Assembly: GCA_008632985.1 (NCBI GenBank)
Contig: QPGO01000016.1
Coordinates: 220,840 to 284,839 of the forward strand
Length of the DNA stretch: 64,000 nt
Direction: 5' to 3'
Source of the DNA: Psammoneis japonica
Lineage: Eukaryota
A program made the position numbers and the translations under genes. Shown here piece by piece: positions 29,931-55,396 of this stretch. Position 1 is the stretch's first letter; each line of letters begins with the position of its first letter. A model generated the notes under the pieces. It had not been told where the DNA came from and did not search any database. It worked only from the letters and a program-made list of their open reading frames with translations.

Positions 29931-30109
29931 CAGCGAGTGATTGAAGCGAAGTGTGGCGTGATTCTAAACAAGTGCAAGCAGTCGCGAGCAAATCTCTACT
30001 TGTTTTTCAAGTTGCAGCTATCTCCTGTCAGTCTTATCGGCACAATTTAACATAGCATAATCCAAGATCGTGACAGAATGGACCAATTCACTTGGCGGTG
30101 AGCTTAATC

Positions 30110-31606
30110 TCACCAGATCTTGAAAACGGCAATGGTGAGGAAGGCCGACCACACGGCAATGCTGAAATCTAGCAACACTGCTGCGCTCGGAGCATCCGTC
30201 GCCGACCCGCCCGCCTCGCAGCCCTCGGCTTTTAATAGGTCATAGGCTGCCTTTGCTTGAACAAGGCCGTGGCCGTACTTGATGTCGTAGCCGGGTTTAC
30301 CTAGATCCTCGGCGGTCTTGGTCAGCACACCACGAATCTGATGGTTGGTGCAACTGGGAAAGTGACTCCACACCTCTGCAGCAACCGCGGCAACGTGAGG
30401 ACACGCCATACTTGTGCCCGATAAATAGGCGTAGCTGTCTTGTAAGTGTGTGGAGAGGACGTCCACGCCAGGGGCTGCAAGCTCGACTTGATCGTTTGTC
30501 TGGGAAAAGCTTGCGTGCTCCTTGTCTTCATCAACCGCCGCAACCGAAATAACCGCTGGATACGATGCTGGATATGAGTGATCCGAGTTGCCATCATTCC
30601 CCGCCGCAGCCACCACCAAGAAGCCTTCTTCGTACAAAAATTCATACACCTGACTTTCAAACGGAATATAAGTAGAGCCTCCCAAACTCATGCTAATAAC
30701 TTTTGCACCAAATTCGTAGCATGCCGAGACTGACTCGAGAATGGATGATGCAAAGCCACTGCCTTCATCCGACAGGCCTTTTCCAATGTGCTACATTAGT
30801 GAGAGCGAATAATACATATTGCAATGCGTATGAGCACGTAGTTCATCAAGGTGCTGGAGAAATAGATTCACATTTTTGTGCACGTACGAAGGAAAACAAG
30901 TCCGGATTTCTTCTCACGCCTACCACACCCATATCGTTACCACCAATGGCTCCAATGACGCCCGCTGCAGGCCACACGTCCGAGAATTTGACTTGAGAGA
31001 CGATCTCCCAGGAGAATTCAAGTGTAAGATTTGTCACGACGTACCACAGTGGGTCCCATGTCCGTTGCCATCGTCATCCCACGTGCCAGCAATCACCGAG
31101 AGTTGTTGAAAACCATTGGTGCCGGTGACATTATTCGATGCGGAGTTTGGCAAGTCCGAATGGCCGTCTTGAATGCCTGTATCCACAACACAAACATTCA
31201 CCGTACCGGGTGCATCCGCAGCAATGTCAAAGAGCTGGTCTGCTTGAACGAGTCTAATGCCGTATTCAACACTTTCTTCCAAACGACGACGAGTTTCGTT
31301 GTAGACTTTATCCACGGGTGGCTGGGGTCCCAACTCAATGACTGGGTCGACTACTGCGCCTTCAATATCGTCCGATGCATTCAACTGATCCAGAATGGAA
31401 TCCGTATCGGCCTCGGGTACTGTGATGAGAACCAAGCGAAACACCTCAATCTGAAGGTCAATCTTGTTGTCAATGTCAAAACTCTCCAACAGCGCTACAC
31501 CTTGATCGTTGACGTAGCGGGCAAGCAGTTTGGCTTCTTGTGCTTCAACGACCTGAAGGATTAACGATAGAACCGCCAAGACAGGCGGGAACCGAAACAG
31601 CATCAT
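30110..31606 (-). CDS. Subtilisin-like S8 serine protease, copy 2
   Basis: Same motifs and intron positions as copy 1. Reads RRLEESVEYGI in frame. Lacks copy 1's VDQAKGGCEQDPSLDCTTF segment. Confidence 0.9.
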
Positions 31607-32212
31607 GGTGGTTACGGTTTTCGCACGATCGATGAATCAACAGTAATCATGAAAAAAGTGAGGTCAGCGAGGTCGGTGGAGTTTTTTCATTTTTAAAGGT
31701 CAGTATAGCTCGCAACACTTTGTTCCGTTGTAGTACAGTATGTGTGGTACTGTAATCTTTTTACGAGCTTCAACTAAAGGTATCTTTTGATACACAGGAG
31801 AGATCAAACCCCGGAGGTCACTCGTCATCTTGATGTGCTCCGTTGCCCGTTGCACTCTCTCTACTAGTAGAGTAGAGTAGTATGGCCCTACATACTCTAG
31901 CTAAGTGGCTAGTAATTCTCTCTCAAGAGTGTAGAGAGTATGCTCCTATGCTGTACATTTGATGAGAAGGAATGAGTTGTTGTTGGTTGGGCAGCCACCA
32001 GCTAATAGTGTTTTGATTTGTGGCATGTGGCGTGATGCATGCTTGTAGTTAGTCCAGGTGTCTAATTGACCGCGCTATCATGAGATCGTTTATGCTGGGC
32101 GACTGCCTGATCCAGAGCTACAGAAGCAAGTACCGTTCCGAATTCATGGCGTCATCTGCAAAAGTGCATCAACTCCAATGTGCTCAACACCCTGCCACAA
32201 AGTGAAACTCAA

Positions 32213-35100: not shown

Positions 35101-35414
35101 AGAAAGATTGTTTCTACTCGGACAGTGGGGTTCAGAAATGCGGTACCTATCATTGGTGATCGTAACATTGCGCGAAACATGTTCAACGCCATTCTCCGAA
35201 ACCAAGAACGAAACCGCCACCACAATTCCCGGAAGCAGCAAGGGACAATATGAAAATGCGATTCGTGTCGCTGGATCATTCGCGTTCGAATTCGCGAGTG
35301 CCGGTACGACTTGACTATTGATCGCATGAAAATCGTCCGGGCAACCATTTCAACGATTTCACCTCTTCTTTTCTACCATCCTTCACTTGCTTAATCTCGA
35401 ATCCTCATCCACTG

Positions 35415-35972
35415 ATGCCGTTATCCCTCCAGCTACAAGAAGCTTCAAAACCAAGATTTCTTGCTTTTTGTCTCTCTTTTACAATCTTCGCCACCGTCGG
35501 TTCTTTTGTGGCCCTGATGTCGCTGATCGCAAACCACATTTTTGGGTGCTTGGAATACTGTGCAGGCGCTGAATTTGGCAATAACGGAAATGCAATTACC
35601 CTCGCCGCACTTACATCCTATTTGGGCACAGTTCTTTCTTGTTTTTGTGGGTGCGCCTTCTTGGGGGGGCGGCACATGGTTGCAGTTACACGCAAAGGAA
35701 CCGTTGCTCTCATTGTCATATACATCACGCTGGCGACGTTTCAATGCCTTAGCCTTGTCTTGTTTGCAGTGAAGGAAGCAGTGATCCCGAAGCAGGAAGT
35801 GTCCAAGCTAAATTCGTTGTTTGGCAACAATCATGTGACTCATCCCTGCAGCGTTGGTTCTTCTAGCGCAAATGTGCACCAAAACCAATGCAGCACCAGC
35901 ATAGAAGAAGATGAGAACACACTTTCTTGTCAGACTAAGGAGAGCTTGGAAATAGATTCCGCAGTCCTTTAA
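35415..35972 (+). CDS. Hypothetical 4-TM protein, copy 1 (frameshifted near 35785-35830)
   Basis: High identity to 37453..38013; four hydrophobic segments. Confidence 0.65.
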   Translation: MPLSLQLQEASKPRFLAFCLSFTIFATVGSFVALMSLIANHIFGCLEYCAGAEFGNNGNAITLAALTSYLGTVLSCFCGCAFLGGRHMVAVTRKGTVALIVIYITLATFQCLSLVLFAVKEAVIPKQEVSKLNSLFGNNHVTHPCSVGSSSANVHQNQCSTSIEEDENTLSCQTKESLEIDSAVL

Positions 35973-35978
35973 AATAGT

Positions 35979-37150
35979 TTTGTTTACGTTCTGGTTGTTA
36001 ATGTCATCTGGAGCTTCCTTCTTCCCAGGAATTGTGAGCGCTGAGACCTTTCTCCCGTTTCCTGGGTCCACATCTGAGTCCATGTTTGTTTGCAGGCGTG
36101 GCCAGAAAAATGTCATTTGGGTGAGTTGTTTGGTTGTTTGTCTTCAAGTCCACTTGTTTGAACACAAGATTGGGAATTTGTCATTCACTCTGTGCAGCAG
36201 TGGGGTGGCGTGTCACCTGCAATCCAGAAGCTGTGCCAGTCTGAGAATTTCCACATGTTGTTGACCCAGGTGTGAGCAGCTGGGTGATGGCAGCCCTTGT
36301 GCAGCTTTGTTCAAAAAGCTGTCACACTCTGTTGAGAGCACTGGGAGACCACCTTCTCAGTGTGAGACAACATTTTTTGTGACAAATGGTGACTCATGAG
36401 TGCCCAGCTTTGTTTGGTGAGTTGCTGGCCCACAAACTGCATCTCTGGTCATGCTTCACAGATCCCTGCACTTGGCATCATTGCTTGGCCAGCCATGGGG
36501 AGCTGTGCAAGAACAAGCAGCACACCGTGACTGGAACATTTGAGCACCACACAGCAATGTTGTCATGTCCAACAGCTGCCAGCTCAGCACCCACACTTCA
36601 CCATTTCCAAATGTTTGTCAATGGTGTGCCAGGATCACTTGACACCTTTTCATTGTTGCACTTGCTCCACAGTCCACAGACTGTGAGCTGTGGCATCTCC
36701 ACGTGGTGGCTGGAGGGGGCTGTGTCTGCAGTCAGAGCCCCCCCCCAACACACACACACACACAAGGGCTTGACTGTGTGCACAACAAACTGTCCAGGAG
36801 ACTGTGGGCTCCAGAAACTGCTTCACATCATTCTCCAAAGCCAGGAACAAAATTGCAGCCATGCCAAGGCATTGCCGAGCAAGAGTTTGAGACCAAAGCA
36901 AGTGCAGAAGGTGCGTTGTCAAGCAGTGCAGAGCAAAGTCATTGAAATGAGAACTTGCTTGGATGATCAATCTGCTTCCTCATCTCATGTGATGGTGTTC
37001 CCCTCATGCCACGAACGAAAAAGACGCCTGTCATTTTGTGCCTCTTGTGTTTCGCAAGTCTGCTGCACCGCTTCTCTCTCTCGCTGTTTTGCTCTTCCAA
37101 ATCCATGTTGTTTGACAACATCAAGGCAAATGACACAACTCAAATGCTTG
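35979..37150. mobile_element. Decayed repeat/TE block 5, inserted just after the stop of 4-TM copy 1
   Basis: Homology to copy 2 breaks after TTTAAAATAG (35978) and resumes around 37020-37120 (compare 38050-38127). CG/TA depleted. Confidence 0.65.
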
Positions 37151-37452
37151 TTCTCGATCAATCCATGAGCAAATGAAGGACAGGTGTGCGAAACAAGTTT
37201 CTACATGTGGTTCAGAAAATGTTGAAACGGCAGCAGCAAGCCAGGACGAACGAAACCGCCACCACAATTTCGGAAGAGGGGCAATACGAAAACGCGATTC
37301 GTGTCGTTGTGCGATCATTCCACGTTCGAATTCCGCGACTGATTGATATTCTCTATCTTGATCGATTGAAAACGGGGCAAGTTCTCATTTTTTCAACGAT
37401 CGATCGCTTCTTGCTACTTCTTCATTTGCTTATCTCAAATCCTAATCCAGTG

Positions 37453-38013
37453 ATGCCTTGCTTCCGGCAACAAGAAGATCCAACACCAACAAAATTTCTT
37501 GCATTTTGTCTCTGTTTCACAATTTTTGCAACCGTGGGTTCTTTTGTGGCCCTGGTATCGCTTCTCGGCAACCACCTTTTTGGCTGCTGGGAATACTGTG
37601 TAGGCGCTGACGATAGCATTAATGGCATTGCAATTACCCTCGCGGCACTTACATTCTTTTTTGGCACAGTCCTCTCTTGTGTTTGTGGTTGTGCCTTCTT
37701 GGGGGCTCCTCGTATGGACGGAGTAACACGCGAAGGAACCGTTGCTCTCATTGTCATATACATCGCGCTGGCGACGTTTCAATGCCTTAGCCTTGTCTTG
37801 TTTGCAGTGAAGGAAGACAGTGATATCGAGACAGGAAGTGTCCAAGCAAAATTCGTTGTCTTGGCAACAATCATGTGGCTCATCCCTGCAGCGTTGGTTC
37901 TTCTAGCGCAAATATGCACCAAAACCAATGCAGCTACAAGCATAGAAGAGGATGAGAACACACTCTCTTGTCACACCGAGGAGAACCTGGAAATAGATTC
38001 CGCAGTACTTTAA
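37453..38013 (+). CDS. Hypothetical 4-TM protein, copy 2 (intact)
   Basis: MPCFRQQEDPTPTKFLAFCL... with four TM helices. The duplication unit includes ~35030-35400, which resembles 37165-37450. Confidence 0.72.
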   Translation: MPCFRQQEDPTPTKFLAFCLCFTIFATVGSFVALVSLLGNHLFGCWEYCVGADDSINGIAITLAALTFFFGTVLSCVCGCAFLGAPRMDGVTREGTVALIVIYIALATFQCLSLVLFAVKEDSDIETGSVQAKFVVLATIMWLIPAALVLLAQICTKTNAATSIEEDENTLSCHTEENLEIDSAVL

Positions 38014-38374
38014 AATAGCTGAAACGACGTTTTGACTGTCGATTTGGCTGATGTCGGACACAAGAACCTCCTGTCGTTGCATCTCTGTCTTTCTGCAAGT
38101 CCTTCAAAACCCATGTTGTTTGACAACGAATGGAACGAATCATCAGCATCAAAACTATTTACCTGTACCAGTACCCGTACCCGTAAGCTATTAGTAACGG
38201 ATCTAGGTTTCAATCTTATTTTCATAGGGCCTAGAGAAGCAAAACGATCCCTAGTTCTTTTTTTTTTAATTATCACTAGATGGTGCGTTTGTGATAGCAT
38301 TGATAATGTGTCAAATGCAACAGCCAGGAAGAGTCCATACACAAAGTCACAAAGAAACGTATAGCTTTCGAATC

Positions 38375-40266: not shown

Positions 40267-40987
40267 CTAAAATCCCAAGTTCTCCAAAATACCTTTTCCG
40301 TTGACTAGCTCTTGCGCCATGAATCCGGCCGCGGCCAACATGGCCAAGCGTCCATTCTGAAGCTCCTTGGTCTGCATTTCTTCAAATTCGGCCGGGTCAC
40401 TTGGGGCAAGATTCAACGGGTCAAAGCCTAGATTACCCGGCACGTATTCGTCACGCATAAGTCCCTGTTGTCCAATCGGCACGTTACCGGGCGGTACGAA
40501 ACCCTCGTAGGCTCGATTAAATTCGGCGCCGGCCAAGAGACAGGCCAACAGAAAGACGGCCCAACCATTCTGGACGGGAACTTGGGGTAGGTGGCTAATT
40601 GCTGGACCCGTAATGCCCCATTTTCCTTCCACAGCTTCGCCCGTGACAAATCCCACCGTGGCCAACATGGCGACACGGCCGTGGACCAGCTCGGACTCTC
40701 GATAACGCTTCAAGACGGATTCGGGGGCGCTCTTGGAGAAGCCAAGAGGATCAAACAAACCAGTGGGACTGACAATTCCGGGAAAATCTTCAATGGAAGC
40801 AGCCTGTGGAAAAGTGAAACGCGAATAAAAACTACATTAATCGGGAGAGAACAACAGAGCATGAAAACAAATTTCGAATATTCCAACGTACCTCTAGAGA
40901 AGTAGCCGTTGTCGACTTGACTTGATGCGGAGCAAAGGCAGTGGCGGAGCCGACAAGGAGAAAGGATAGGGCGGCGGTAAACTTCAT
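40267..40987 (-). CDS. LHCX: Light-harvesting stress protein LHCX (LI818/LHCSR-like)
   Basis: MKFTAALSFLLVGSATAFAP presequence. Intron 40804-40891. FDPLGF, RESELVHGRVAMLA, ITGPAISHL and KELQNGRLAMLAAAGFMAQELV. Confidence 0.92.
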
Positions 40988-41220
40988 GGTGTTGCGTCGA
41001 CTTCAGAGAAAATTGTGAGCTACTCACTGTTTTTTGGAAGGCCCAAGGAAAGCACTGAGTCAAGGCAACGAGTGCCAGCGCAGCAGTGTCATCAGAACAA
41101 TCATCACAGGTACGAGGTTCGGTGTTTGAGTATGATGGGGACACCTTACAGCACTACTGTACTGTAAGCAAAATCGATTTTCGTTCGGCTTTTCGAAAAA
41201 AGATTTTCTCCCTCCGACAG

Positions 41221-41247
41221 TGACGTGGAAATGACGAAAAGTGACGC
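41221..41247. promoter_or_regulatory. Triple TGACG(T) cluster upstream of LHCX
   Basis: TGACGT (41221), TGACGA (41232) and TGACGC (41242), about 235-260 bp upstream of the ATG. Confidence 0.5.
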
Positions 41248-41349
41248 ACACAATAAATGCGTGTCTACATGTGTGAATACAAACGTACATACGCTAAGCA
41301 CCCGGATATTTCGTAGAAGACCACATGCTGACGCCGTGCAGACTTCGCC

Positions 41350-44300
41350 TCACTCCTTTCTTTCGTCAATGTTGACAATTGAGGAAGAATCGGGGTGTGG
41401 CAGTCTCTCTTGTCCCCAGTGGAAGGACACTGCATGGCAATTCCTCCTCAAAGTTTTGATGATTTGAGTGATGATGTTTCTTGCATTTCGATGACCCACC
41501 CACACATTTGCCTGTTGTCATTGTGTGCTGCCCCGACAGAGTGTGAATGTGTGCCCAAGACCTCACCAGCAGAGGTGCATGTCACCATCAACTCCTTTGT
41601 TGCCATGAGTGGTCAACAGCAATGGTTGTTCTGGTGGTTGGGAATGAACAACAAAGTTTTTCAAGTGCTTGAGATGCAGGTGGAAGCTGCTGGGGAGGCT
41701 GGAGATTTTTGTGACTGGCGGGGCGCTCATCCGACCAAACCAACACAAAAGAAGCTCTTCAAGTGATGTTGCAACCATCAGCATTCCATCACCAATGCAA
41801 CACCTGCCCAAGCCAGTCATCAGGGGGCACTCAAGCTGGTCGACCATCTGGGAAAACAGTGTGACAGCTGCTGCAGGGAGAGGCTCCTCAAACGTTTGGG
41901 GTTTGAGCCACGAAATGCACTCTCTGGATTTTGTTGCACCTGCAATTCAGCAGGAAAACCAATTGTTGGTGCACCGGACATGGAGCACATGGTCCCACAC
42001 TAGATGGACTCATGGCGATTGCCTCTGGCTTCGCTCATTCCCTTTTCTGGACATGCGTCACATGGCAGCTTGTGTCTGTTTGGGAGTCTGACAGGTCATG
42101 TCGCCCTTTCAATGCCTCCTCTGCATTGTTTGGGACACATGGCATCAATGCGTTACATTCGAGCACCTCAACTTGTCTTGTGGAAGAGCCCATTGGCCAC
42201 CAACCACTTCGACCATTTTTCAACGACTTTGTTTTTTTTTCTACGTGGGAGCCAGTGTTGTTTCCACGCAGCATCCAACCACGGCTGCGAATCGACTTGT
42301 GGCACTGCACCCTTTGATCCATCAAGGCTTTGCTGCTTTTTTTGCAGTGATTCATTGACAAGCATCCATTCTGTTGACATTGGCTGTTCTTTGCTCCGTT
42401 GCCGGTGGTTGTTGACACTCGCAAGCCTCACGAAGACTTGCCAGCCTTCATCCTCCGAATCGGATGTCTTCTGTGTGACCTCCAGCGCAAGTTCTGCGTG
42501 TTGATGCTGTTTTGTTCCAGCGAACTGTGATGCTCTGCACCAGTGATGACCTCTCCGGGACAGCTGATGATGATCCTGCCTCTCAGCCTTCCTCTCTCCA
42601 TCTTGTGCAATGTGCCAGCAGCTGTGGATGTGGTTCATGCCGGCCAATGCTCTCTGCAGACAAGCAGTCGGGAGCTCTTTTCTGTCACCCCGTGGCGCTG
42701 GCAGATTCTTTCCAACTGGCTCTGGAGCTGACAAAACCAGAGAATTTTGAGCTGCCTGATTGTGTCAATGCTTGGAACAGTCTCTGTCTGTGCACTTTCC
42801 TGTTTGCGAAGTTTTCAAGTCAGGATCCCAGGACGGTTCTAGAGGAGCTCTTGCCCCCTTGCTCTTTTGAGTCACTTCCTCACCTTCACTCACATGTTGA
42901 CCGGTGGTGGCATTTTCTGCTTGAACAGCTTGCCTCTCCCACTTCTGATCCCTTTGTCATCGATGTGGACATTGACAAAGCAGCTTCCAAGGTGGTGCAT
43001 GAGTCCATTTTGCCTGTGCAGCCCCCTGAGCAATGCCCTGATGCGGGTTGCCCGTGCAGCCCTGCTGCATCTTGTCGATCTGGTTCTCTCCCACTGAGAT
43101 CAATCAGGGCCTTTGCTTTCCCTTTGCATCCTTTTGATTGGGTTGACGGTTGTGTTTGCGATGCTCCTGCTTCTGGGAATGATGCTGACGTGTCTCTTTG
43201 TTTTGGAACAGACGCCACGTTGGATCCTTCCAAACTCCCCGACGACGACCCATTTTCCCCTGGATTGAAGTCTTTGCAGCCGCACCCCATCACACACACT
43301 GCACCGCCACTGCATTCCTTTGGTTGGATTGATGGACTTGGCTTTGAAGGTTCTTCCATTGCCCCGGCTGGCTTTTCTCTCAGGTTTGGTGCTGCCGCGA
43401 CTTTGGATCCATCCAAGCTTCCCGACGATGACCCAAACGAGGATGCCCCGCACCCCATCACATGGATGACCAACCTCTTCTTGGATGTCTTGACCCTTTC
43501 TGATGATGACCCAAGCCATCTTTCCTTGCTGTTTTGTTTTTCTGCTCCCTGGTTTGATGACCCAACATTGGATTTGTCGAAGCTGTCCGATGATGACCCT
43601 TGCTCTTCTTCTTCCAACTGGGGGAGGGTTTCTTACACTGCATTGCCTTGCAGCTGATTGTCCGGTGGACTGCGGCACAGCATTTGTGGGTGTGTTTTTC
43701 TGATGACAGCATCATTTGCTCCATTTGTGCGGCTCTTTTTTTTTTTGTGATCAAACCAATGCTTTGATCAGTGGAGGGTGTTGGCGCACCGGACATGGAG
43801 CACATGGTCCCACACTGGACAGACTCATGGTGATTGCCTCTGGCTTCACTCGTTCCCTTTTCTGGACATGCATCACATCGTAGCTTGTGTCTGTTTGGGA
43901 GTCTAACGCCAATGCCTCACCAAAGCATTTGAACCTGTTGCCAGAGCCAGCAGGACACTTTGAAGCACCATGATTTCTTGGCTGGGAGCTGCCTCAATGG
44001 CTGCATTGCCCCAGCACTTGTTGCATGTTTTGACATCTTCAGATTGGGTCCAGGCTCAATGGAGAGTAAAATGCAACCTGGTGGATGGCCAATTCTGCAA
44101 TTGATGCTTGGACATTTTGGTGAAAATCTGCCAAGTGTGAAAATGCCATGCTTTGGAGCTCATTTGGCCTTGACGATGATGGATGTCTCTGCCTGAGTGT
44201 GCACCTCATTTCCAGCCACCACGCAAACATCCAAGTGTGACCCACTTCTGCAAGATGACAGCACCCCTTTGATTGGCTTCTTTCCACAAAAAGACCTGAA

Positions 44301-45400
44301 AGCATCAAAGACACAAAGTCGAGCCCCAAAACGACAGAGCCTCTCAGAGCAACAACCATTGTGATGTGGTGCTGCCAGCCCTCGAATGACTCGCGGTTCT
44401 GATGTGCCAAAAAATGAGCAAAAGATGCTCTTTTTGGCCAGTGGAACTGCTCTGATTCTTTTTGTTTATGAAACAAGAGGCCAGAAAGCTTCACCCTGAC
44501 AATGACAAAGTCAAAAACAAAGAGTTTTGTGAGCAAAACAAAAGAAAATGTTGCAAAGCTTGCCCTCAAGTGCTCACCTCACAACACATGTTCTGGCATC
44601 TGACTCATGATTGGAAGCATCAAAAGGCACACTCTCACCCTAATTTGATGTTGCTTCTCTTCAGAACAATTTTGAAAAATCACTTGGCCCCAATCCACTG
44701 AAGTGCAAAAGTTCAAGCAACTGGAACTCCCACCCAGATTGGCCTCGACTTGTGGTGAGGGGGATGTTGCATGGGTCCTCCAGGTTTGCAAGCCAGAAAA
44801 GGAAAGAAAATGTGGCAGTTTCACAATGTCTCGTCAAGAAAAAACTCACGTTTGCCACCAGAATCAACGCGCTTTCATCATGGCCATGCCCACAAAAAAC
44901 TCCTTCGGCTCATTGCGCAAAATTTTGGAGAGTGATGAGACATCATGAGATGAGGTGATTTACACAGCGTTGTGGTGCAAAATGTGTGTGTGACATCAAC
45001 ATGCCAGGCCTGCGGCTGTGGTGCACCTCTTTCATGGGGTGCCTTTCAACATGTGTGGCGCAATTGCTGTCGGCCTTTTTGTTCCTGGGATGAAATCCAG
45101 TGACAGCTCTGCAGCTGTGGCTTTGGCAAACTCAGTGCTCCAAAGTTTGGGTGGACTGGATCACTCAACAGGCCACTCTTGCTTGCAAAAACTCAGGGGG
45201 GGGCTTCGTCCAGTGTTTCTGAAGACTCCTCTCAAGACCTCCATTGGCCGAGTTTCAACTTGTGTCACCAAACTTTGACGCGGCGCCTCCCACAGTTGTT
45301 GTTTGCCTCTTCTTTCAATTTTCAATGCATTGTCGTTTTCGATTTTCAATGCAACCGAATGCAACAATGATTGTGATGTTTCAGTTTTTGTGTTCACTCG
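41350..45400. mobile_element. Decayed repeat/TE block 6 with internal direct repeats
   Basis: CG/TA depleted. 128-bp direct repeat at 41964-42091 / 43779-43906. Four TTGGATCC..CCGACGATGACCC-type units at 43220-43600. Confidence 0.7.
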
Positions 45401-47357: not shown

Positions 47358-48159
47358 TATTTGCAGCCGTAGCTACTGGTGGCCATTTTACTTCTTCTTT
47401 TGGAGTGCAATGAGGGGTCACAAAGTCACAAAGAGGGCGGTGAAAGCATTACTTTTGGATTTTGTTTGACGTGAACCTACTATGTACAGTTCTATGTTCT
47501 ATTTTATTTTACAATGGTTGAAGACGTCAATGACTTATGACTGTGACCGCCATCAACGACTGAAACGATTGAACAACCAACGCGAACCCAATCAAAAATT
47601 TCGAGGTTCAAATCAAGAATGGAGCTCACTTTATTCTCGTTCTTACACTGACAAGAACTTCTTGTTCCTGTTAAGTCTTTGGCTCCAGCTCATCCATGTC
47701 ACCTTTGGCACATGTTCCTGTCACTTCTTGTTTCTTCACAATGATTGGCCTCCTTGTTGCTTGGCCTGTTCCAGCGAATGAATGCAGACACAGCATCGTG
47801 GCTGGTGTCACAATGCTCTTGCCCTTGTCTTTACGATGCACTCATTTCTGTGTAGCAGCTCCCACAAGTTTGCAAGCCAATCAGGCTTTCTTGTCCTGTG
47901 CTCCCCACACGTTCCATGCACTGACCAAGACAGACCACTCCGCCAGGATTTGCTCGATCCCCGCGAACCGACACAGCCACATCGACACAACTGTGTCTGT
48001 TCATCCACTCGAAACATCCTCTCATAGAGAGCCAAAACACAAACCCAATTTGCTGCCAGCCAATCTGGCTTGGGAGGTCACAAGGTGTGAGTGCGAGTTG
48101 CAAGCCCTGGACCTTGGCTGCAAAGGACCATCATCGCCGAAAGACAAATGAACATGGCT

Positions 48160-48678
48160 GCCAATGCTTTTCACCTGTCACAAACTTTGTCAACGGATCC
48201 ACCAAATTTGTCTCTGCATCTTCCTTTCCATCTCTCATCATTCTGGCTGCAACTGCCTCTCTCACTGTGCGACAATTGACTGCGTTGTGTGCTTCTTGTG
48301 CAGCGCAGATTCCGGAGTGCTGACATTCTTCACCACAACATGGTTGTCACAAAACACGCTCGCCGGTCCATCCAATGGTGCTCCAAACATGCACAACTTG
48401 TGATGCAAAGCAACAATCATGTCCTCACAGGTGCGCATTGCAACCAGTTCACTGCCAAATGCAGAAGACTCAACCGCATTCTGCCGTTTGCTGAACCACA
48501 TGATCGGAGAATTGTTCACAAAGACAACAACGCCAGAGTGTGACCTGTGCATGACAATGTTTCCGGCATGATTCACATCAATGAAAGCATGCACAGTTGC
48601 TGGGTTTCCACACAGCTTGGGCATCTCAGGCGGCAACTCTTCTTTGATGTTGCCATGGAATTTGACCCAACATGTCAA
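48160..48678 (-). mobile_element. Ty1/copia (CoDi-like) RNase H relic
   Basis: FIDVNHAGN..RSHSG..PIMWFSKRQNAVESSAFGSELVAM..VFCDN..KKH, then after a frameshift NAVNCRTVREAVAA..GKEDAETNLVDPLTK. Confidence 0.92.
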
Positions 48679-49569
48679 AAAAGGTGATTGTTAGACGGCG
48701 GGTGACGTTTGGGGAAAGAGGCACCCGGTGCAAACAAACAAACCTTTCTTGATTTCACACAAACAAAACAATGATTTGCACATCAATTTTTGCCGGCTCT
48801 CATCATCTGTGCACATCATTTGCTCTTTTGCATGACATTGCAGCCTCACTGAGCATTCAAAGATGTTTGCAAAACGCCCCTGCTTGTTGCTTGGCATGGC
48901 TTTGTTGATGAGAAATGACACCAAGAGGTTGCAAGAGTGGCGTGATGGGTGTTGTCATCCAAAAAAAATCTTGTGTTTGTCTGTGTGTGTGCAACTTGGC
49001 ACTTCTTCTTGTTCATGGAAGACCAACAGTGTGCAAAAAGTCACAGTCATTAGAACAGACTTTTTGCTGACTTTGACAGGTCATGCCAGTCAAAGTCACT
49101 TGCAGCGCTGCAGCTGGTCAAGAGCAATGATGAACAATCAGAAGTCAAAGTCAGGTACGCAGCAGTCAGTCACCTCTCATGGTGTTCAGTCAGCAAACTG
49201 ACTGACACTCAGCCAGCAAACTGACTGACACACATCACTTGTCAAGGCCATCTGAAACTTGTTTCTGCTCTGAACAAGAAGGAGTGTGAGTGAGCACAAT
49301 TCATTGTGCAAAACTTCCACAAGCTGTGTGGCAATTGCACAAAAATTGACTCAGGTCTTGTTTGTTGTCAAAATCAAGCTCAAAACAACCACGCCAATTT
49401 TGCTCTTTGTTTGTCGCACTGATCCAGCACATCCATTGTTGTCATTTGTCTTTTCAAACACAGTCATGTGGATGGTTGCACACCTTCAATTTCTTTGTTT
49501 TCTTGTCAAAATCTCATCCACAGTTGATGCACTTCTTGTTTCAAAGCCAGCTCCACCATTCTGTGGCAC

Positions 49570-52500
49570 TCTCAACGACAGCTCTTGAAAAGTTTCATCT
49601 CTGGGGTCTCCCAAAGAAGCCTCTCAGTGCCTTTTGAATGCAGTTGTTGGGTTGGTTGGTGCACCCCCCATGGTGTCCTTTCACTGTGGGCCAAGGCATT
49701 GCTTTGCTGCAAAATTGCACTCATGAAGTGCTTCCACTGCGGACTTTGGATTTCAAGCCTCGCCCTTGGCTCTGTGTGAAGTGACATGAGGTCACAGCTG
49801 AGCCAGGAGGGTGGCCTTTCAACTCTCAACCACAGCTCTTAAAGTTTCAACTGGGGTCCACTGTGGACACCCAGCACCTTTGGATGGCAGTGGTTTGGTT
49901 TGTTTGTGCATTCACTCATGGTGTCGTTCCACTGCAGAGCTGGGGCTTCAAGTCCCCCCCCCCCTTGGCTTTGTGTGAAGTGACATGTGGGGCCACAGCT
50001 GAGCCAGAGTGGCCTTGCAACTCTTCATCACAGCTCTTGAAGTGTTGTCTGGGGTCCAGAAAAGACACTTGGTGCCTTGTGACTGCAGTTCTTGGGTTGG
50101 CAGGTGCACTCATGGTGTCCCTTCACTGAAGAACTGGGGCTCAAGCCCCCCCTCTGGCTTTGTGCAAAGTGACATGAGGCCACAGCTGAGCCAGGGTGGC
50201 CTTGCAACTCTTTGCCACAGCTCTTGGAGAGTGTTGCCTGGGGCCCAGAAAAGGCACTTGATGCCTTGTGACTGCCGTTGTTGGGTTGGCAGGTGCATTC
50301 ATGGCACCCCTTCACTGCAGAAAAGGGGTTCAAGTCTCACCCTTGGCTTTGTGCAAAGCGACACGGGGCCACAGATGAGCCAGGGTGGCCTTGCAACTCT
50401 CAACCCCAGCTCTTAAAGTGTTGCCTGGGGTCCACCAAAGACACTCAACACCTTGTGCCTGCAGCTGTTGGGTTGGCAGGTGCACTCATGGTGTCCCTTC
50501 ACTGCAGAACTGGGGCTCAAGTCTCGCCCTTGGCTTTGTGCAAAGTGACATGGGACCACAGCTGAGCCAGGGTGGCCTTGCAACTCTCAACCCCAGCTCT
50601 CAAAGTGTCACCTGAGGGGGTCCACCACACGTGCTCAACACCTTGTGACTGTGGTTGTTGGGTTGGCAGGTGCACTCGTGGTGTCCCTTCACCACAGAGC
50701 TGTGCGGGGGGTTCAAATCTCTCACCCTTGGCTTTGTGCAAAGTGACATGGGGCCACAGCTGAGCCAGGGCAGCCTTGCAAATCTCAACCATGGCTCTTG
50801 GAGTGTTGCCTGGGGTCCACCACACATGCTCAACACCTTGTGACTGTGGTTGCTGGGTTGGCAGGTGCACCCGTGGTGTCCCTTCACCGCAGAACTGGTG
50901 CTCAAGTCTCGCCCTTGGCTTTGTGCAAAGTGACATGCTGGGGCCACATCTGAGCCAGGGTGGCCTTGCAACTCTTAACCCCAGCTCTCAAAGTGTTGCC
51001 TCTGGGGTCCACCAAAGACACTCAACACCTTGTGACTGCAGCTGTTGGACTGGCAAGTGCGTTCATGGCATCCCTTCACTGCAGAAAAGGGGTTCAAGTC
51101 TCACCCTTGGCTTTGTTCAAAGTGACATGGGGCCACAGCTGAGCCAGGGTGGCCTTGCAACTCTCAACCCCAGCTCTTGGGGTGTTGACTGGCATCCTCC
51201 AAAGACACTCAACACCTTGTGACTGCAGCTGTTGGGCTGACAAGTGCATTCATGGCATCCCTTCACTGCAGAAAAGGGGTTCAAGTCTCACCCTCAGCTT
51301 TGTTCAAAGTGACATGGGGCCACAGCTGAGCCAGGGTGGCCTTGCAACTCTTAACCCCAGCTCTTAAAGTGTTGCCTGGGGTCCACCAAAGACACTCAAC
51401 ACCTTGTGACTGCAGCTGTTGGGCTGGCAAGTGCATTCATGGCATCCCTTCACTGCAGAAAAGGGGTTCAAGTCTCACCCTTGGCTTTGTTCAAAGTCGC
51501 ACGGGGCCACAGCTGAGCCAGGGTGGCCTTGCAAACCTCAACCATGTCTCTTGAAGTGTCACCTGGGGCCCACCACATGTGCTCAGCACCTTGTGGTGAC
51601 TGTGGTTGTTGGGTTGGCAGGTGCACTCATGGTGTCCCTTCACCACAGAACTGTGCGGGGGTTTCAAATCTCTCACCCTTGGCTTTGTGCAAAGTGACAT
51701 GGGGCCACAGCTGAGCCAGGGCAGCCTTGCAAATCTCAACCATGGCTCTTGGAGTGTCGCCTGGGGTCCACCACACATGCTCAACACCATGTGACTGTGG
51801 TTTGGTGGGTTGACAGGTGCACTCACAGTGTCCCTTCACCACAGAACTGGTGCTCAAGTCTCGCCCTTGGCTTTGTGCAAAGTGACATGCTGGGGCCACA
51901 TCTGAGCCAGGGTGGCCTTGCAACTCTTAACCCCAGCTCTCAAAGTGTTGCCTCTGGGGTCCACCAGAGACTTTCAACACCTCGTGACTGCAGCTGTTGG
52001 ACTGGCAAGTGCGTTCATGGCATCCCTTCACTGCAGAAAAGGGGTTCAAGTCTCACCCTTGGCTTTGTGCAAAGTGACATGGGGCCACAGCTCAGCCAGG
52101 GTGGCCTTGAAACTCTCAGCCATGTCTCTCAAAGTGTCACCTGGGGCCCACCACATGTGCTCAACACCTTGTGAAGGTGGTTGTTGGGTTGGCAGGTGCA
52201 CTCATGGTGTCCCTTCACTGCAGAACCTGGGCTCAAGTCTCGCCCTTGGCTTGACATGAGGAGAGACAGGTGGCATTGCAGCACTTGACCATGGCTCTTA
52301 AAATGTTCACTGGGGTCCACCAAAGACACTCAACACCTTGTGACTGCAGTTGTTGGGTTGTCAGTCAGGCACATTCATGGCGTCCCTTTGCTGAAAAATT
52401 TGGGCTAAAGTCTCAGCACCCTTGTGTTTGTGTGAAGTGTCGCGGGGTCTCAGTTGCACCACGGCGGCTTTTCAGCTCCCAACCGCGGCTCTGAAAGTGT

Positions 52501-52890
52501 CACCTGGGGTTCACCAAAGACAGTCAATGCCTTTTGACAGCAGTGGTTGGGAGGGCAGGTGAGACTTGAACCCCACTTCATTGCAAAACTGGGGTTGAAG
52601 TCTCGCCCTTGGCTTTGTGCAAAGTGACATGGGGCCACAGCTGAGGCAGCCAGGGTGGTCTTGCAACTCTCAACCATGGCTCTTAAAGTGTTGCCTGGGG
52701 TCCACCAAAGATGCTCAACACCTTGTGACTGCAGTTTTTGGGTTGGCAGGTGCACATTCATGGCATCTCATTGCTGCAGAGCTGGGGTTCAAGTTTCACC
52801 CTCAGCCAGGGTGGCCTTGAAACTGTTGCCCATGGCTCTTAAAGTGCTGCCTGGGGTCCACCAAAGATGCTCAATGCCTTGTGACTTTCG
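49570..52890 (+). repeat. Satellite array, about 17 monomers of 187-198 bp
   Basis: CCAGGG landmark at 50191, 50380, 50567, 50765, 50955, 51144, 51331, 51518, 51716, 51907 and 52096. Diverged monomers at both edges. Confidence 0.95.
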
Positions 52891-53775
52891 CAAAGTTGCA
52901 AAGCAGGGTGATGAAAGCATTTTGTTTGATGTGAACCTGGGCAATTCTGTGTGACATTTTAACGTTTAAAGATGTCAATTGTTTTGTCCAACACTGAATG
53001 TGGAATGCAAAACACATGATGAGATGGTGTTTTCCAGATTTGAACTGACCTTTTCAGAGCATTTGCAACTCGGGCAGTGAGAAAATGAGTGGATCACAAA
53101 TTGCTTTGTTTTCTAAGAGGGGAGAGAGTTGAAGATGACCAGACTCCAACTCAACTTGGGCTGGATGATCAGGGCCAAATTGAGATGTTGTGCTTGCAGC
53201 AACTGGGTGTCAGGTTTCAGTGCCAGATGTCCAAAAGCTCAGAGAACAGTGGCGGCTGTTTCTGAGCTGGGTGCTCTTGAGCATCAGTCGCAGCCATTTT
53301 GAAGCAACACCACCAGCATGAACGCACTTTGTTCTTGTTGCCTGTTTGCTGACTGGCTCAAATGGAGTGGACACAGAAACATTGTGTTGCATCTTCGGCT
53401 TTGTTGTTGAGACTGATCTTGAAAAGACGCTGCCACTCAAACTCAAGCACCAGCTTTGGGCACAAAAAATTCCATCCACCGCCTTCTTTGGTGGTCCCTG
53501 CCCCTGCATCTGGAGTGTCCTTGCCCACCCAAAAGATGACGGGGTTCTTTGGTGTGTGGTTTTGCGTGCTGAATGAAATGTGTGAGGAGATGGGCACACT
53601 CAGCTTCATGATGTGAGAGAAAAACAGGCAAGAGAAAAACAAACACTCTGTCTCTCACCAAGGCTGTGTTGAGGGGACTTGCCAACAAAGGAAAATGACA
53701 ACTCTTTTGCCACTGGCTTGCTCCTTCGGCTGTGGTCACTTGGCCAAAGCACTCCATTTTTCTCAATGATGCCTT

Positions 53776-54222
53776 GTGCAACATGCAGCCACCAATGAGA
53801 GTCAACGCATCACGGCGACGTGTTACAGCCTTTAAATGTCACAAAGGGCGTGACAAAAACAACCTTTTGTCTGCATGCATGCTTCATTGTGAATTCACAG
53901 CGGAGTGGTACATCGTGACCACTGGGCAGGAGGCCAGGGGTTCGAAACCCGAGTGGGAGTTGTCTGCAGCAACGTTGATCACTGTCGAACGCGTAAAACT
54001 CTGTGCAGTTCTGTATGTTCCTTCGTACGTACCCACACTGTTCCGCCAAAACCGTGCAGTGTCAGCACACGTCAGTAAAGAGCCGCATGGACGCGTGACA
54101 CATGGGGAGGAGTGCAACACACAGCCACTGATGAGAGTTAATGTATCACGGCGACGTGTTACAGCCTTTAAATGTCACAAAGGGCGTGACAAAAATGACC
54201 TTTTGTCTGCATGCACACTTCA
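53776..54222 (+). repeat. 111-bp direct repeats (53776-53886, 54112-54222) enclosing a tRNA-like sequence
   Basis: Gap-free alignment at offset 336. Confidence 0.92.
53891..53960 (+). mobile_element. tRNA-derived Pol III promoter / SINE-head-like element
   Basis: A-box-like CAGCGGAGTGG (53898) and B-box GGTTCGAAACC (53939) in a GGG-TTCGAAA-CCC T-arm. Acceptor and anticodon stems are poor. Confidence 0.6.
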
Positions 54223-55396
54223 CTTGCCCCCCCCCCCCGCCCCTTTGCCAAGGGTTTTCAGAAATGGCTGTGGGCTGGCAGATGAGCTGCTGCTTGCTGT
54301 GTGCAGCACCAACACACTCATCTCATGCTTGTCTGGTGGGCAACACTTGCTTGTTTCTTGCTTTCTGTGTCTCCCTCTGCACTGCCCCCCCCCCCCCCCC
54401 CCGCAAGCAGAGGAGTGCAGTTGCAGCTGGCTTGCTGACTGGCGCACACTTGTTGGTCTTGCTGATCTCTGATGAGAAATCACTGCATGGGTTGCAAGCA
54501 CATTTCTGTCACCACTGCCACCTTTGCCATGTGTCAACTGCGGCTGTGCAGAAACTGAAAAGCAAGTGCCAGACCCACAACTCAGCAGGAGCTGTGAGCG
54601 CAAGTTTGCCACATCGCCAACAATTGCCAGTGCATCCTTTGCTGCAACATGCCATCTGTCTGTCCTGCAAAGAACTGCCTTGCACCCCAGCACTCCAACA
54701 GCGGCACTTGTTCTCTCCAAAAAGAACAAACAACAAACCAATCACTCACAGGGTTTTTGCAGGTCTTTGATGCACCACAGAAAGTTGGTGCATCATGAGG
54801 CAGCCACAAAGCAGATCTGTGTGACACAGAAACAGCAGCACAGGCAAGCTCAGATGTGGCCAGTTCAGCGGCTGTGTCTGAGTGGCTTTGGAGGAGCATG
54901 TTCTTCAATTGAAAGTCGCTGAAGTTGTCACAAGTTTGCATTTGTGCTGCACTTGACAAAAGGCAAATGGCGCCTGCAGACTGGACAAAATGTGCAGGAG
55001 CTTTGACGGCATCATTTTTGTTGTTGCAAGGCAACAGAAGCTTTGGCAAAGATGTGGATGGTGGTTGTCATTGTCATGTTGCTGGGGCACCTGCTTGCTT
55101 CTCATGATGTTTTGTTGTGCTCTGGGCTGATGGAATCTCAAAGAGCATTTCAAGCTGGTGACATCTGTCATTGTTTGGCAGAAAAGACTCCAAAGCATTT
55201 GGGCATTGGGCCTCACATTTTTCACTGGTTGACCAGGGCAACCTTTCAGACCCGTTGTTCCCACCACCACCAAAGTGACCCCAAAGTTGACAAAGTCACC
55301 ACAGAGAGTGCAGAGCGGCACTTTGAGCATGGGCTGAGCTGGGAGGGGTGCTTTTCCACTCAGCTCACTGCACTCCAGGCAGTGGGGGGGGTGCCA

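What the first reader, a model, noticed from the sequence alone, without database searches (positions are those of the whole stretch)
41964..43906. Internal control 1: two 128-bp repeat copies differ almost only at pyrimidine-purine dinucleotides
By-eye alignment of 41964-42091 with 43779-43906 gives 10 variable sites: 5 CG vs TG/CA, 3 TA vs TG/CA (ctaga/ctgga, gcagc/gtagc, tctga/tctaa), 1 TG vs CA (two independent hits on an ancestral CG or TA), and only 1 unrelated transversion. The rest is identical, so these changes far exceed background.
Basis: seen in the sequence. Interest (0 to 1): 0.8.

Follow-up and report, generated by a model that had tools for sequence, protein, structure and literature searches.

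The report
LTR pair recording CpG/TpA decay
The two repeat copies are the end repeats of a small jumping gene in a diatom-like alga, and every difference between them lies at a CG, TA, TG or CA step, which suggests that this part of the genome is being mutated selectively at CG and probably also at TA.

Summary
The copies differ at 11 of 128 columns: 10 transitions and 1 transversion. All 11 lie in pyrimidine-purine steps, which make up 54% of positions (p about 0.001).

The copies are really 130-bp LTRs (41964-42093 and 43779-43908) of a 1,945-bp LTR element. It has TG..CA ends, a 5-bp target duplication (CCAAT), a purine run before the 3' LTR and an element-free paralogue in a public run. 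The host is a diatom-like alga. LTRs are identical at insertion, so the 12 differences arose after insertion: 6 CG vs TG/CA, 3 TA vs TG/CA, 1 TG/CA doublet and 1 transversion. None of the 59 positions outside such steps differs.

The element lies in one of several islands where CpG (o/e 0.06-0.5) and TpA (0.00-0.16) are both nearly erased and TG/CA is enriched. Gene-bearing DNA is normal. CpG loss fits methyl-cytosine decay. TpA loss matches the TpA->TpG/CpA hypermutation shown experimentally in Bigelowiella natans (2026 preprint).

The direction of change could be read at only one of the three TA sites. There a third copy gives TA/TG/CA, which favours ancestral TA. A rival remains open: cytosine deamination at CWG, which would create TA.

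The parts
41959..41963 (.). Left copy of the 5-bp target-site duplication, CCAAT
   Evidence: Read. The same five bases directly follow the 3' LTR at 43909-43913.
41964..42093 (+).
   Evidence: Alignment; TG..CA termini read.
42094..43778 (+). Internal region, 1,685 bp. No RT, integrase or gag domain. TpA o/e 0.04 and CpG o/e 0.48. It holds a 69-bp internal repeat (43184-43252 / 43367-43435, 77%).
   Evidence: Pfam scans (0 families); composition; internal repeat.
42479..43657 (+). Open frame of 392 codons with L(P/S)DDDP repeats. Probably a real or recently real gene of unknown family.
   Evidence: Only 3 of 2000 dinucleotide-preserving shuffles reach this length. One distant relative, P0241: library-wide E 1.6e-5, 33% identity over 91 aa plus the shared DDDP motif. 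No Pfam family. No hit in the word-indexed search or the Atlas. Tyr is 1 of 392 residues.
43770..43778 (+). Purine-rich run AGTGGAGGG abutting the 3' LTR (polypurine-tract-like)
   Evidence: Read; 8 of 9 bases are purines. Its function is inferred.
43779..43908 (+).
   Evidence: the last dinucleotide is CG where the 5' LTR has CA.
43909..43913 (.). Right copy of the target-site duplication, CCAAT
   Evidence: The pattern CCAAYRCCTYRCCAAAGCATTT joins the left flank's last bases to the loose end of an element-free contig. It matches only 43909-43930.
41001..45000 (.). The CpG- and TpA-depleted, TG/CA-enriched island that contains the element
   Evidence: 1-kb profile: CpG o/e 0.29-0.52, TpA 0.05-0.23, TG/CA 1.59-1.72.

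Best explanation
The two copies are the long terminal repeats of a 1,945-bp LTR retroelement (41964-43908). It carries one open frame of unknown family and no reverse transcriptase. It lies in the nuclear genome of a diatom-like (ochrophyte) alga.

The two LTRs of one insertion are made from one template, so their 12 differences are mutations that arose since insertion. All 12 are at pyrimidine-purine steps because the element lies in a repeat island where two context-specific processes dominate.

(1) Decay of CpG to TpG/CpA. The most likely cause is deamination of 5-methylcytosine in silenced, methylated transposon DNA. This accounts for 6 single differences and probably the TG/CA doublet.

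(2) Exchange between TpA and TpG/CpA. I read this as mainly TpA loss by A->G / T->C hypermutation, of the kind seen in mutation-accumulation lines of Bigelowiella natans. This accounts for 3 differences.

Shown: the repeat structure, the context restriction and the island-wide erasure of CpG and TpA. Inferred: methylation, the direction of change at two of the three TA sites, and the enzyme.
For: LTR element:
- 130-bp direct repeats with TG..CA ends, CCAAT on both sides, and a purine run before the 3' LTR.
- One contig of run X1 follows the left flank to 41962 and then continues with 18 letters. These match the right flank at 14 of 18 positions. The 4 mismatches are two TG/CA doublets, so this is a paralogue without the element (table 7; pattern check: 1 match, 0 in 100 shuffles).
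- Diatom Copia-type elements have the same TG/CA ends (23 of 26 families) and a 5-bp target duplication (one case, ACAAG) (PMC2806351, passages).

Host:
- The N-myristoyltransferase and LHC open frames have their best named hits in diatoms, at 64-70% and 59-68% identity.
- The window is gene-dense, with long unbroken frames on both strands.

Context restriction:
- 12 of 12 differences are in YpR steps against 54% expected. None of 59 non-YpR positions differs.
- B versus the third copy: 11 of 11 in YpR steps. Across the 40 listed differences between the window and X1 contigs, 34 of 40 are in YpR steps against 47% expected, and 35 of 40 are transitions.

CpG decay:
- Of 8 columns where either LTR has CG, 1 is shared, 6 are CG vs TG/CA and 1 arises from the transversion.
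- Columns 53-54 read CG/TG/CA in three copies.
- All LTR retrotransposons tested in P. tricornutum were methylated, and the one locus examined by bisulfite was methylated at CpG, which the authors report as preliminary, data not shown (PMC2806351).

TpA:
- 3 of 3 non-CpG transitions swap TA with TG/CA, where 26% would be expected (p = 0.018).
- The element has 7 TA in 1,945 bp (o/e 0.07). The 3 that lie in the LTRs are all LTR-variable and none is shared.
- Islands pooled over 19 kb have TpA o/e about 0.08 in every context, against 0.5-0.8 in gene-bearing DNA.
- CpG and TpA depletion co-vary over 64 one-kb windows (Spearman 0.79, p = 8e-15).
- 21 of 64 windows pass both thresholds used for the B. 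natans clusters.
- Columns 38-39 read TA/TG/CA in three copies.
- The open frame has Tyr at 1 of 392 residues, against 3.0% in the window's Pfam-supported frames and 2.6% in its only relative. Cys and His are raised.

Precedent: in B. natans, the 20 mutations in the virophage-derived region and 210 of 211 in the NCLDV-derived region were A->G or T->C, all at TpA. The rate was about 1000 times background (bioRxiv 10.64898/2026.01.13.699255; abstract, Results and Discussion read).
Against: - The direction at the TA sites is not established. Only one of three could be polarised, with a single extra copy that is known only from a table of differences.
- All three TA-variable sites are CAG/CTG vs TAG/CTA. 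CWG makes up about 20% of the LTR's TG/CA sites (0.2 cubed = 0.008, noticed post hoc). Two of four further sites where a paralogue has TA are CTG->CTA. This fits TA gain by deamination of CWG-methylated cytosine.
- The third copy has a private TA where both LTRs have CA (columns 96-97), which may be a gain.
- In four disjoint close pairs of the nearby satellite, only 2 of 41 differences involve TA.
- Other duplicates in the window, which are gene-bearing and of normal composition, show only a mild YpR excess (168 of 259) and transitions about equal to transversions. The pattern is therefore regional, not genome-wide.
- No primer-binding site beginning with TGG follows the 5' LTR. No tRNA gene is available for comparison.
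- No methylation, RNA or mutation-accumulation data exist here.
- Run X1 may be the sample that the window was assembled from, so it is not independent support for the sequence.
Confidence: 0.55

Rival explanations
1. All transitions are cytosine deaminations at symmetrically methylated sites, CG and CWG. CG becomes TG/CA and CAG/CTG becomes TAG/CTA. On this view the TA at the three variable sites is derived, not ancestral, and no TpA-specific process is needed for this LTR pair.
For: 3 of 3 TA-variable sites lie in a CWG context, against about 20% of the LTR's TG/CA sites. Among the listed differences to paralogous contigs, 41926 and 42496 are CTG->CTA. The third copy has a private TA at columns 96-97 where both LTRs have CA. 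Transposon methylation is known in diatoms (PMC2806351; PMC9998398, passages).
Against: Steady CAG->TAG flux should enrich TAG. Yet TAG o/e is 0.06 in the islands, and every TA context is depleted (TAA 0.13, TAC 0.08, TAT 0.03). At columns 38-39 this model needs at least three changes, against two for an ancestral TA. TA-variable sites in the satellite are not in a CWG context. The CWG pattern was noticed post hoc on three sites.
Confidence: 0.2
2. Only CpG decay is special. The three TA-involving differences are ordinary transitions that happened to fall on the very abundant TG/CA steps. The island's TpA poverty has another cause, such as inherited composition of the repeats.
For: TG/CA steps cover nearly half of the LTR (28-30 TG/CA dinucleotides per copy). 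Without the CpG-related changes only 4 differences remain, so the numbers are small. In gene-bearing duplicates, TA<->TG/CA changes are as common as CG<->TG/CA (27 vs 29 of 259) with no asymmetry.
Against: P(3 of 3 non-CpG transitions swap TA with TG/CA) = 0.018, and none of 59 non-YpR positions differs. TpA o/e of 0.00-0.16 in six unrelated islands, tightly correlated with CpG loss, is hard to get by inheritance alone. No TA is shared by the two LTRs.
Confidence: 0.1
3. The pair is not an LTR pair but the overlap of a 1.07-copy tandem (segmental) duplication with an 1,815-bp period.
For: Tandem duplications are common in this window, for example 26040-28045 / 29824-31799, 35206-35977 / 37248-38018, and the 187-bp satellite. 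No canonical primer-binding site and no RT were found.
Against: The pair has TG..CA ends, an exact 5-bp duplication directly outside both repeats, and a purine run before the second repeat. A paralogous contig joins the left flank directly to the right flank without any copy of the repeat. A tandem duplication would leave one unit behind.
Confidence: 0.05
4. CpG and UpA are removed by selection on the element's RNA, as in RNA viruses and retroelements that avoid CpG- and UpA-sensing nucleases, not by DNA-level mutation bias.
For: Joint CpG and UpA suppression is well known in RNA viruses and cytoplasmic RNAs (PMC3829696, seen in the search listing and start of abstract only). The element replicates through RNA.
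Against: The LTR differences arose after insertion in a single copy, where selection for replication no longer acts. A non-coding 187-bp satellite and other island DNA without open frames or domains are as depleted as the element (TpA o/e 0.06). Depletion to 0.00-0.1 is far beyond the values quoted for viruses. TG and CA are both enriched, so the pattern is strand-symmetric.
Confidence: 0.05

Closest known systems
Non-autonomous LTR retrotransposons (TRIM/LARD class) and the Copia-type CoDi elements of diatoms (Maumus et al. 2009, PMC2806351)
   Same: Terminal direct repeats, TG..CA ends, a 5-bp target duplication, a purine run before the 3' LTR, and an empty paralogous site. CoDi elements share the end motif and the 5-bp duplication.
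   Different: No reverse transcriptase, integrase or gag domain. The single open frame belongs to no known family. No TGG-type primer-binding site was seen. The size, 1.9 kb, lies between typical TRIMs and LARDs (size classes recalled).
Methyl-CpG deamination decay of silenced transposons (vertebrates, plants, diatoms)
   Same: CG vs TG/CA differences, TG/CA doublets, and regional CpG o/e of 0.06-0.5 beside unaffected genes (CpG o/e 1.02 in coding DNA).
   Different: Methylation was not measured here. In the classical cases TpA is not erased together with CpG (recalled).
TpA->TpG/CpA hypermutation of integrated viral and other foreign DNA in Bigelowiella natans (bioRxiv 10.64898/2026.01.13.699255)
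   Same: [quoted passage not shown] 21 of 64 windows pass that paper's two thresholds. The signature falls on transposon-like and unannotated DNA. TA vs TG/CA differences separate young copies.
   Different: The host lineage differs (diatom-like stramenopile, not a chlorarachniophyte). Depletion is far deeper here (0.00-0.16, against 0.45 for their NCLDV region). It affects a satellite and an LTR element. It is coupled to CpG loss, which that paper does not mention (0 occurrences of 'CpG'). No direct mutation data exist here. The preprint's supplementary tables were not seen.
Repeat-induced point mutation (RIP) of fungi
   Same: Transitions at a preferred dinucleotide, confined to repeated or transposon DNA next to intact genes.
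   Different: RIP turns CpA into TpA and enriches TpA (PMC2621366, start of abstract). Here TpA is nearly erased and islands are no more AT-rich (GC 0.50 vs 0.47).
5-hydroxymethyluracil at TpA/TpC in dinoflagellate DNA, enriched on transposons
   Same: A thymine modification with TpA preference on repeats could give T->C at TpA (PMC6723414 and PMC11572971, passages).
   Different: The window's genes are diatom-like, and the gene layout is not dinoflagellate-like. I know of no report of this base in diatoms (recalled; not searched).

Membership tests
LTR retrotransposon | Two terminal direct repeats in the same orientation | tested here: met
   130 bp, 118 of 130 positions identical, 1,815 bp apart.
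LTR retrotransposon | LTRs begin with TG and end with CA | tested here: met
   The 5' LTR reads TG...CA. The 3' LTR reads TG...CG, a CA/CG difference at the last step.
LTR retrotransposon | Target-site duplication of 4-6 bp directly outside both LTRs | tested here: met
   CCAAT at 41959-41963 and 43909-43913. The chance of an exact 5-bp match at fixed places is about 1 in 1024.
LTR retrotransposon | Empty (pre-insertion-like) site elsewhere | tested here: met
   The loose end of one X1 contig at 41962 continues into right-flank sequence (14 of 18 letters). The pattern check hits only 43909-43930. This rests on one contig and a paralogue, not an allele.
LTR retrotransposon | Polypurine tract before the 3' LTR | tested here: inconclusive
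   AGTGGAGGG, 8 of 9 purines, abuts the LTR. It is short and its function is untested.
LTR retrotransposon | tRNA primer-binding site after the 5' LTR | tested here: inconclusive
   GGTCATGTCGCC follows the LTR, with no TGG start. There is no tRNA gene in the window and no genome is held.
Autonomous LTR retrotransposon (Copia/Gypsy) | gag, protease, RT, RNase H and integrase domains | tested here: not met
   0 Pfam families in every internal open frame of 70 aa or more, on both strands.
Methyl-CpG decay | CG replaced by TG/CA; regional CpG deficit with TG/CA excess | tested here: met
   6 CG vs TG/CA differences; the element's CpG o/e is 0.48, TG 1.57 and CA 1.69.
Methyl-CpG decay | 5-methylcytosine present at CpG in the region | not testable with these tools
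   No methylome is available. The only run found is DNA contigs.
B. natans-type TpA hypermutation | Clustered TpA depletion together with CpA+TpG enrichment | tested here: met
   [quoted passage not shown] The longest run is 8 (permutation p = 0.0026). There are 3 clusters of at least 3 windows, which is not significant by cluster count (p = 0.10).
B. natans-type TpA hypermutation | New mutations are A->G / T->C at TpA only | tested here: inconclusive
   3 TA vs TG/CA differences between the LTRs. The direction is read at one site only (TA/TG/CA in three copies). CpG changes occur as well.
B. natans-type TpA hypermutation | Targets of foreign or mobile origin | tested here: met
   An LTR element and a satellite are affected, while Pfam-supported genes are spared (TpA 0.59, CpG 1.02).
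Fungal RIP | CpA->TpA, giving TpA enrichment in repeats | tested here: not met
   TpA o/e is about 0.08 in the islands.
Dinoflagellate 5hmU system | Host is a dinoflagellate | tested here: not met
   The best named hits of two proteins are all diatoms. The window has intron-poor genes on both strands.

The most novel reading that the evidence does not exclude
A diatom-like alga runs a region-targeted editing defence that erases both self-complementary pyrimidine-purine steps, CpG and TpA, to TpG/CpA in transposons and satellites while sparing neighbouring genes. The TpA arm would be the process just seen in Bigelowiella natans, here carried almost to completion and in a different supergroup lineage. 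The two arms might share one targeting system, or even one ADAT2-like deaminase that acts on both A and C in DNA. The preprint's Results state that amphioxus ADAT2 edits both A and C in DNA, and that the trypanosome enzyme deaminates A in RNA and C in DNA.
Probability: 0.4. Interest if true: 0.8.

Novelty: new variant of a known kind. Interest (0 to 1): 0.6.

Why it matters
An LTR pair is a natural before-and-after experiment, because both ends start identical. This pair shows that in this alga's repeat islands nearly all change happens at CG and TA-related steps. None of the 59 other positions changed, while about half of the CpG sites did.

Three things follow.

First, dating insertions by raw LTR divergence (9%) would be badly wrong in such genomes.

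Second, if the TpA arm is real, the TpA-specific hypermutation known from a single 2026 preprint on a chlorarachniophyte also operates in the diatom lineage. It would act on transposons and satellites, and together with CpG loss. That would point to a widespread, RIP-like but opposite-direction genome defence in marine algae.

Third, the question is directly testable. The islands are easy to find by composition. LTR families, methylomes and mutation-accumulation lines would settle the direction and the mechanism.

Tried and rejected
- **Whole genome.** Not held.
- **Metagenome scans.** Two scans with YR-degenerate LTR patterns found 0 loci each.
- **Other copies in the window.** None.
- **Sequencing runs.** One DNA holder was found and no RNA holder was listed. 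The single read-laying run shows only 40 of 240 differences, so columns 103 and 127 stay unpolarised.
- **Tree-based inference of ancestral states** for the 15 satellite units. This could not be run. Per-column majority counts showed that the satellite's majority has 0 CG and 0 TA sites, so no TA-loss rate could be measured there.
- **Polarising by a functional versus a decaying gene copy.** Both subtilase-region copies have normal composition, and changes are symmetric (TA loss/gain 14/13, CG 14/15). The 35206/37248 pair gave 2/6 and 7/6.
- **Inverted pair 29601-29751 / 56393-56543.** Too few sites.
- **Dinoflagellate 5hmU idea.** Dropped after the protein hits proved diatom-like.
- **Fungal RIP.** Rejected because TpA is depleted, not enriched.
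- **VSP-repair-like loss restricted to CTAG** (recalled from E. coli). Rejected as the sole cause, because all TA contexts are depleted.
- **Domain relics in islands**, to use HMM consensus as an outgroup. None of 150 open frames reached a curated Pfam cut-off; three had weak sub-threshold matches.
- **Other searches.** Rfam found 0 families. There are no tRNA genes. The Atlas gave no usable hit for the open frame. Earlier-findings look-ups gave nothing on this genome and only phage cases elsewhere.
- **Literature.** Searches for joint CpG/TpA depletion in diatoms or transposons found no such report. The B. natans preprint came.
Full report
**1. The observation**

The two stretches align without gaps over 128 columns and differ at 11 of them. 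The repeat finder lists them as a two-copy family 1,815 bp apart (D20). The differences are 10 transitions and one G/C transversion.

- five CG vs TG/CA (columns 7, 53, 70, 74, 94);
- three TA vs TG/CA (39, 103, 127);
- one TG vs CA doublet (42-43);
- one transversion (101).

The transversion itself sits in a TG step in copy A and makes a CG in copy B. The similarity runs two bases further and adds a twelfth difference, CA vs CG.

Pyrimidine-purine (YpR) steps cover 54% of the positions, yet hold 11 of 11 differences (p = 1.1e-3) or 12 of 12 (p = 7e-4). None of the 59 positions outside such steps differs.

**2. What the repeat is**

Read in context, the copies begin with TGTTGG and end with CTGACA (41964-42093) and CTAACG (43779-43908). 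The five bases CCAAT stand directly before the first copy and directly after the second. A purine run, AGTGGAGGG, abuts the second copy. This is the anatomy of an LTR retroelement of 1,945 bp with a 5-bp target-site duplication.

Laying the contigs of the only public run that holds the stretch (X1) gave 60 related contigs at 80% likeness or more. One of them follows the left flank to 41962 and then continues with 18 letters. These match the sequence right of the element at 14 of 18 places, and the four mismatches are two TG/CA doublets. A pattern built from this junction matches the window only at 43909-43930. A paralogue of the flanks therefore exists without the element. That fits an insertion, not a tandem duplication.

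The internal 1,685 bp hold no reverse transcriptase, integrase or gag domain. They do hold a 392-codon open frame. Only 3 of 2000 dinucleotide-preserving shuffles reach that length. The frame has one distant relative among 1.8 billion representatives: P0241, E 1.6e-5, 33% identity over 91 residues, with the same DDDP motif. Neither protein has a Pfam family.

I found no TGG-type primer-binding site, and the window has no tRNA gene to compare with. I file the element as a non-autonomous LTR element that carries a gene of unknown family.

**3. The host**

No genome is held. The window is gene-dense, with long unbroken frames on both strands. These include N-myristoyltransferase, PRP38, CHRD, fibrillin, subtilase, NmrA, CIA30 and an LHC protein.

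The best named hits of the N-myristoyltransferase (64-70% identity) and of the LHC protein (59-68%) are all diatoms. No hit is closer. The host is therefore a diatom-like ochrophyte that is not in the protein collection.

My first idea was a dinoflagellate whose 5-hydroxymethyluracil prefers TpA (PMC6723414 and PMC11572971, passages). I dropped it for this reason.

**4. Why the differences sit where they do**

The two LTRs of one insertion start identical, so the 12 differences arose after insertion.

*CpG.* Of eight columns where either LTR has CG:
- one is shared;
- six are CG vs TG/CA;
- one comes from the transversion.

About half of the CpG site-copies have therefore changed, while none of 59 non-YpR positions has.

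*The third copy.* One X1 contig covers about 43758-43905 at depth 61. The window-identical contig there has depth 63.5, and the depth of the flank with the lowest summed depth (taken as single-copy) is 62.5. The contig is therefore a paralogue and not an allele. It differs from copy B at 11 listed places, and all 11 are in YpR steps. The three copies read:
- CG/TG/CA at columns 53-54;
- TA/TG/CA at columns 38-39;
- CA/CA/TA at columns 96-97.

*All listed differences.* Across the 40 listed differences between the window and X1 contigs (200 more were not shown), 35 are transitions and 34 lie in YpR steps, against 47% expected. They include eight TG/CA doublets and ten CG vs TG/CA singles.

*Comparison with gene-bearing duplicates.* The gene-bearing duplicates in the window behave differently. 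The pair 26040-28045 / 29824-31799 has 133 transitions and 126 transversions, with 168 of 259 differences in YpR steps. The pattern is regional.

**5. The regional context**

The window is a mosaic.

Six islands share one composition: 2001-5000, 14001-15000, 28001-30000, 36001-37000, 41001-45000 and 48001-56000. They have CpG o/e 0.06-0.5, TpA o/e 0.00-0.16 and TG/CA o/e 1.6-1.96. The rest, which bears the genes, has CpG near 1.0 and TpA 0.5-0.8. Pfam-supported frames have CpG 1.02 and TpA 0.59.

Over 64 one-kb windows, CpG and TpA depletion correlate (Spearman 0.79, p = 8e-15). Pooled over 19 kb, island TpA is depleted in every context (TAA 0.13, TAC 0.08, TAG 0.06, TAT 0.03).

The element lies in one island and has 7 TA in 1,945 bp (o/e 0.07). 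The three TA in its LTRs are exactly the three LTR-variable ones, and none is shared. Its open frame has one Tyr in 392 residues, against 3.0% in the window's other proteins and 2.6% in P0241. Cys and His are raised.

The islands hold a 187-bp satellite and unannotated DNA. None of 150 open frames there reached a curated Pfam cut-off.

**6. Mechanism**

CpG loss with TG/CA gain in transposon DNA next to unaffected genes is the classical trace of 5-methylcytosine deamination. In P. tricornutum, all LTR retrotransposons tested were methylated. The one locus examined by bisulfite was methylated at CpG, a preliminary result the authors give as data not shown (PMC2806351, passages). Diatoms carry DNMT5 and DNMT4 (PMC9998398, passages). 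Methylation here is inferred, not shown.

TpA loss needs another process. A literature search found a 2026 preprint (bioRxiv 10.64898/2026.01.13.699255). I read its abstract, Results and Discussion but not its supplements.
- In mutation-accumulation lines of Bigelowiella natans, two integrated viral regions mutate about 1000 times faster than the rest of the genome.
- The changes are almost exclusively A->G or T->C, and always at TpA.
- An ADAT2-like adenine deaminase is proposed as the cause.

Here, 21 of 64 windows pass both thresholds. The longest run is 8 (permutation p = 0.0026), although the count of clusters of three or more windows (3) is not significant (p = 0.10). The flagged windows have median CpG rho 0.29 against 0.95. 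The preprint does not mention CpG.

I therefore read the three TA-involving LTR differences as mainly TpA decay of this kind. For the LTR pair itself, 3 of 3 non-CpG transitions swap TA with TG/CA, against 26% expected (p = 0.018).

**7. What speaks against this reading, and what stays open**

- *Direction.* It could be read at only one of three TA sites. Columns 38-39 read TA/TG/CA, so the per-column majority is T and A. An ancestral TA needs two changes there, and any alternative needs at least three. The evidence is one contig.
- *CWG context.* All three TA-variable sites are CAG/CTG vs TAG/CTA. CWG makes up about 20% of the TG/CA sites (0.008, noticed post hoc). Two of four further paralogue-specific TAs are CTG->CTA. 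This is what deamination of CWG-methylated cytosine would give, and it would create TA. Against that rival, TAG is as depleted as every other TA context.
- *Satellite.* Only 2 of 41 differences in four disjoint close pairs involve TA. The satellite majority has no TA or CG left to lose.
- *Tests that gave nothing.* Polarity tests on the two gene-bearing duplicate pairs were symmetric. The inverted pair gave too few sites.
- *Tests that could not be done.* Tree-based polarisation could not be run, and no further LTR copies could be fetched.

**8. Comparison and verdict**

The structure is an ordinary kind, an LTR element. Its CpG decay is also ordinary.

The joint, near-complete erasure of CpG and TpA in islands is not ordinary. 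Neither is the fact that an LTR pair changes only at these steps. The only known counterpart of the TpA arm is the B. natans preprint. The case here differs in host lineage, in depth of depletion, in targets (a transposon and a satellite) and in its coupling to CpG loss.

Fungal RIP is excluded, because it enriches TpA. My searches found no report of joint CpG/TpA erasure in diatoms. The library lacks most subscription journals.

I rate the finding a new variant of a known kind, with interest 0.6. My confidence is about 0.85 that this is an LTR pair. It is 0.55 for the full reading, which includes net TpA decay.

Noticed in passing
window 2001-5000, 14001-15000, 28001-30000, 36001-37000, 41001-45000, 48001-56000: Six islands where CpG (o/e 0.06-0.5) and TpA (0.00-0.16) are both nearly erased and TG/CA reaches 1.6-1.96, set between gene-bearing DNA of normal composition. 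CpG and TpA o/e correlate over the 1-kb windows (Spearman 0.79). Windows 36001-37000 and 55001-56000 hold no TA at all.
   Followed up: partly
window 49747-52780, with inverted relatives at 3600-4700: A satellite of about 16 units of 187-198 bp with a higher-order repeat of about 950 bp. 14 of 38 YpR sites are TG/CA-polymorphic among units. CG remnants occur at 10 sites and TA remnants at 1-2. One site reads TA/CA/TG in 4/4/5 units with no CG.
   Followed up: partly
window 26040-28045 vs 29824-31799, and 35206-35977 vs 37248-38018: Two tandem duplications of gene-bearing DNA (the first holds a subtilase domain). Each pair brackets a CpG/TpA-depleted island. The duplicated copies themselves have normal composition, transitions about equal to transversions, and symmetric TA and CG changes.
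   Followed up: partly
window 42479-43657 (+): A 392-codon frame inside the element with four L(P/S)DDDP repeats. Its only detectable relative is an unnamed 265-aa protein from an ENA assembly (P0241) with the same motif. No family, fold or function is known.
   Followed up: partly
window 42001, 43881, 43904 (LTR columns 39, 103, 127): All three TA-variable LTR sites are CAG/CTG vs TAG/CTA, one of them inside a CTAG palindrome. It is unclear whether this reflects a wider motif of the TpA process, CWG methylation, or chance.
   Followed up: partly
window 43090, 43281, 43292, 43304-43305, 43594: At these places every X1 contig that covers the site differs from the window. The run and the assembly therefore differ here, by strain, haplotype or assembly error. 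Three of the six places are CG/TG changes.
   Followed up: no
window 41868-41951 and 41899/44070: The left flank of the element is itself multi-copy in run X1 (summed depth 260, against about 62 for the lowest-depth flank). One contig joins 41899 to 44070, skipping 2,170 bp. The element seems to have landed in an older repeat.
   Followed up: no
window 40267-40836 (-): An intact LHC gene of the LI818/LHCX type, by the names of its hits, lies under 200 bp from the island edge and keeps normal CpG and TpA content. The boundary of the depleted state is therefore sharp.
   Followed up: no
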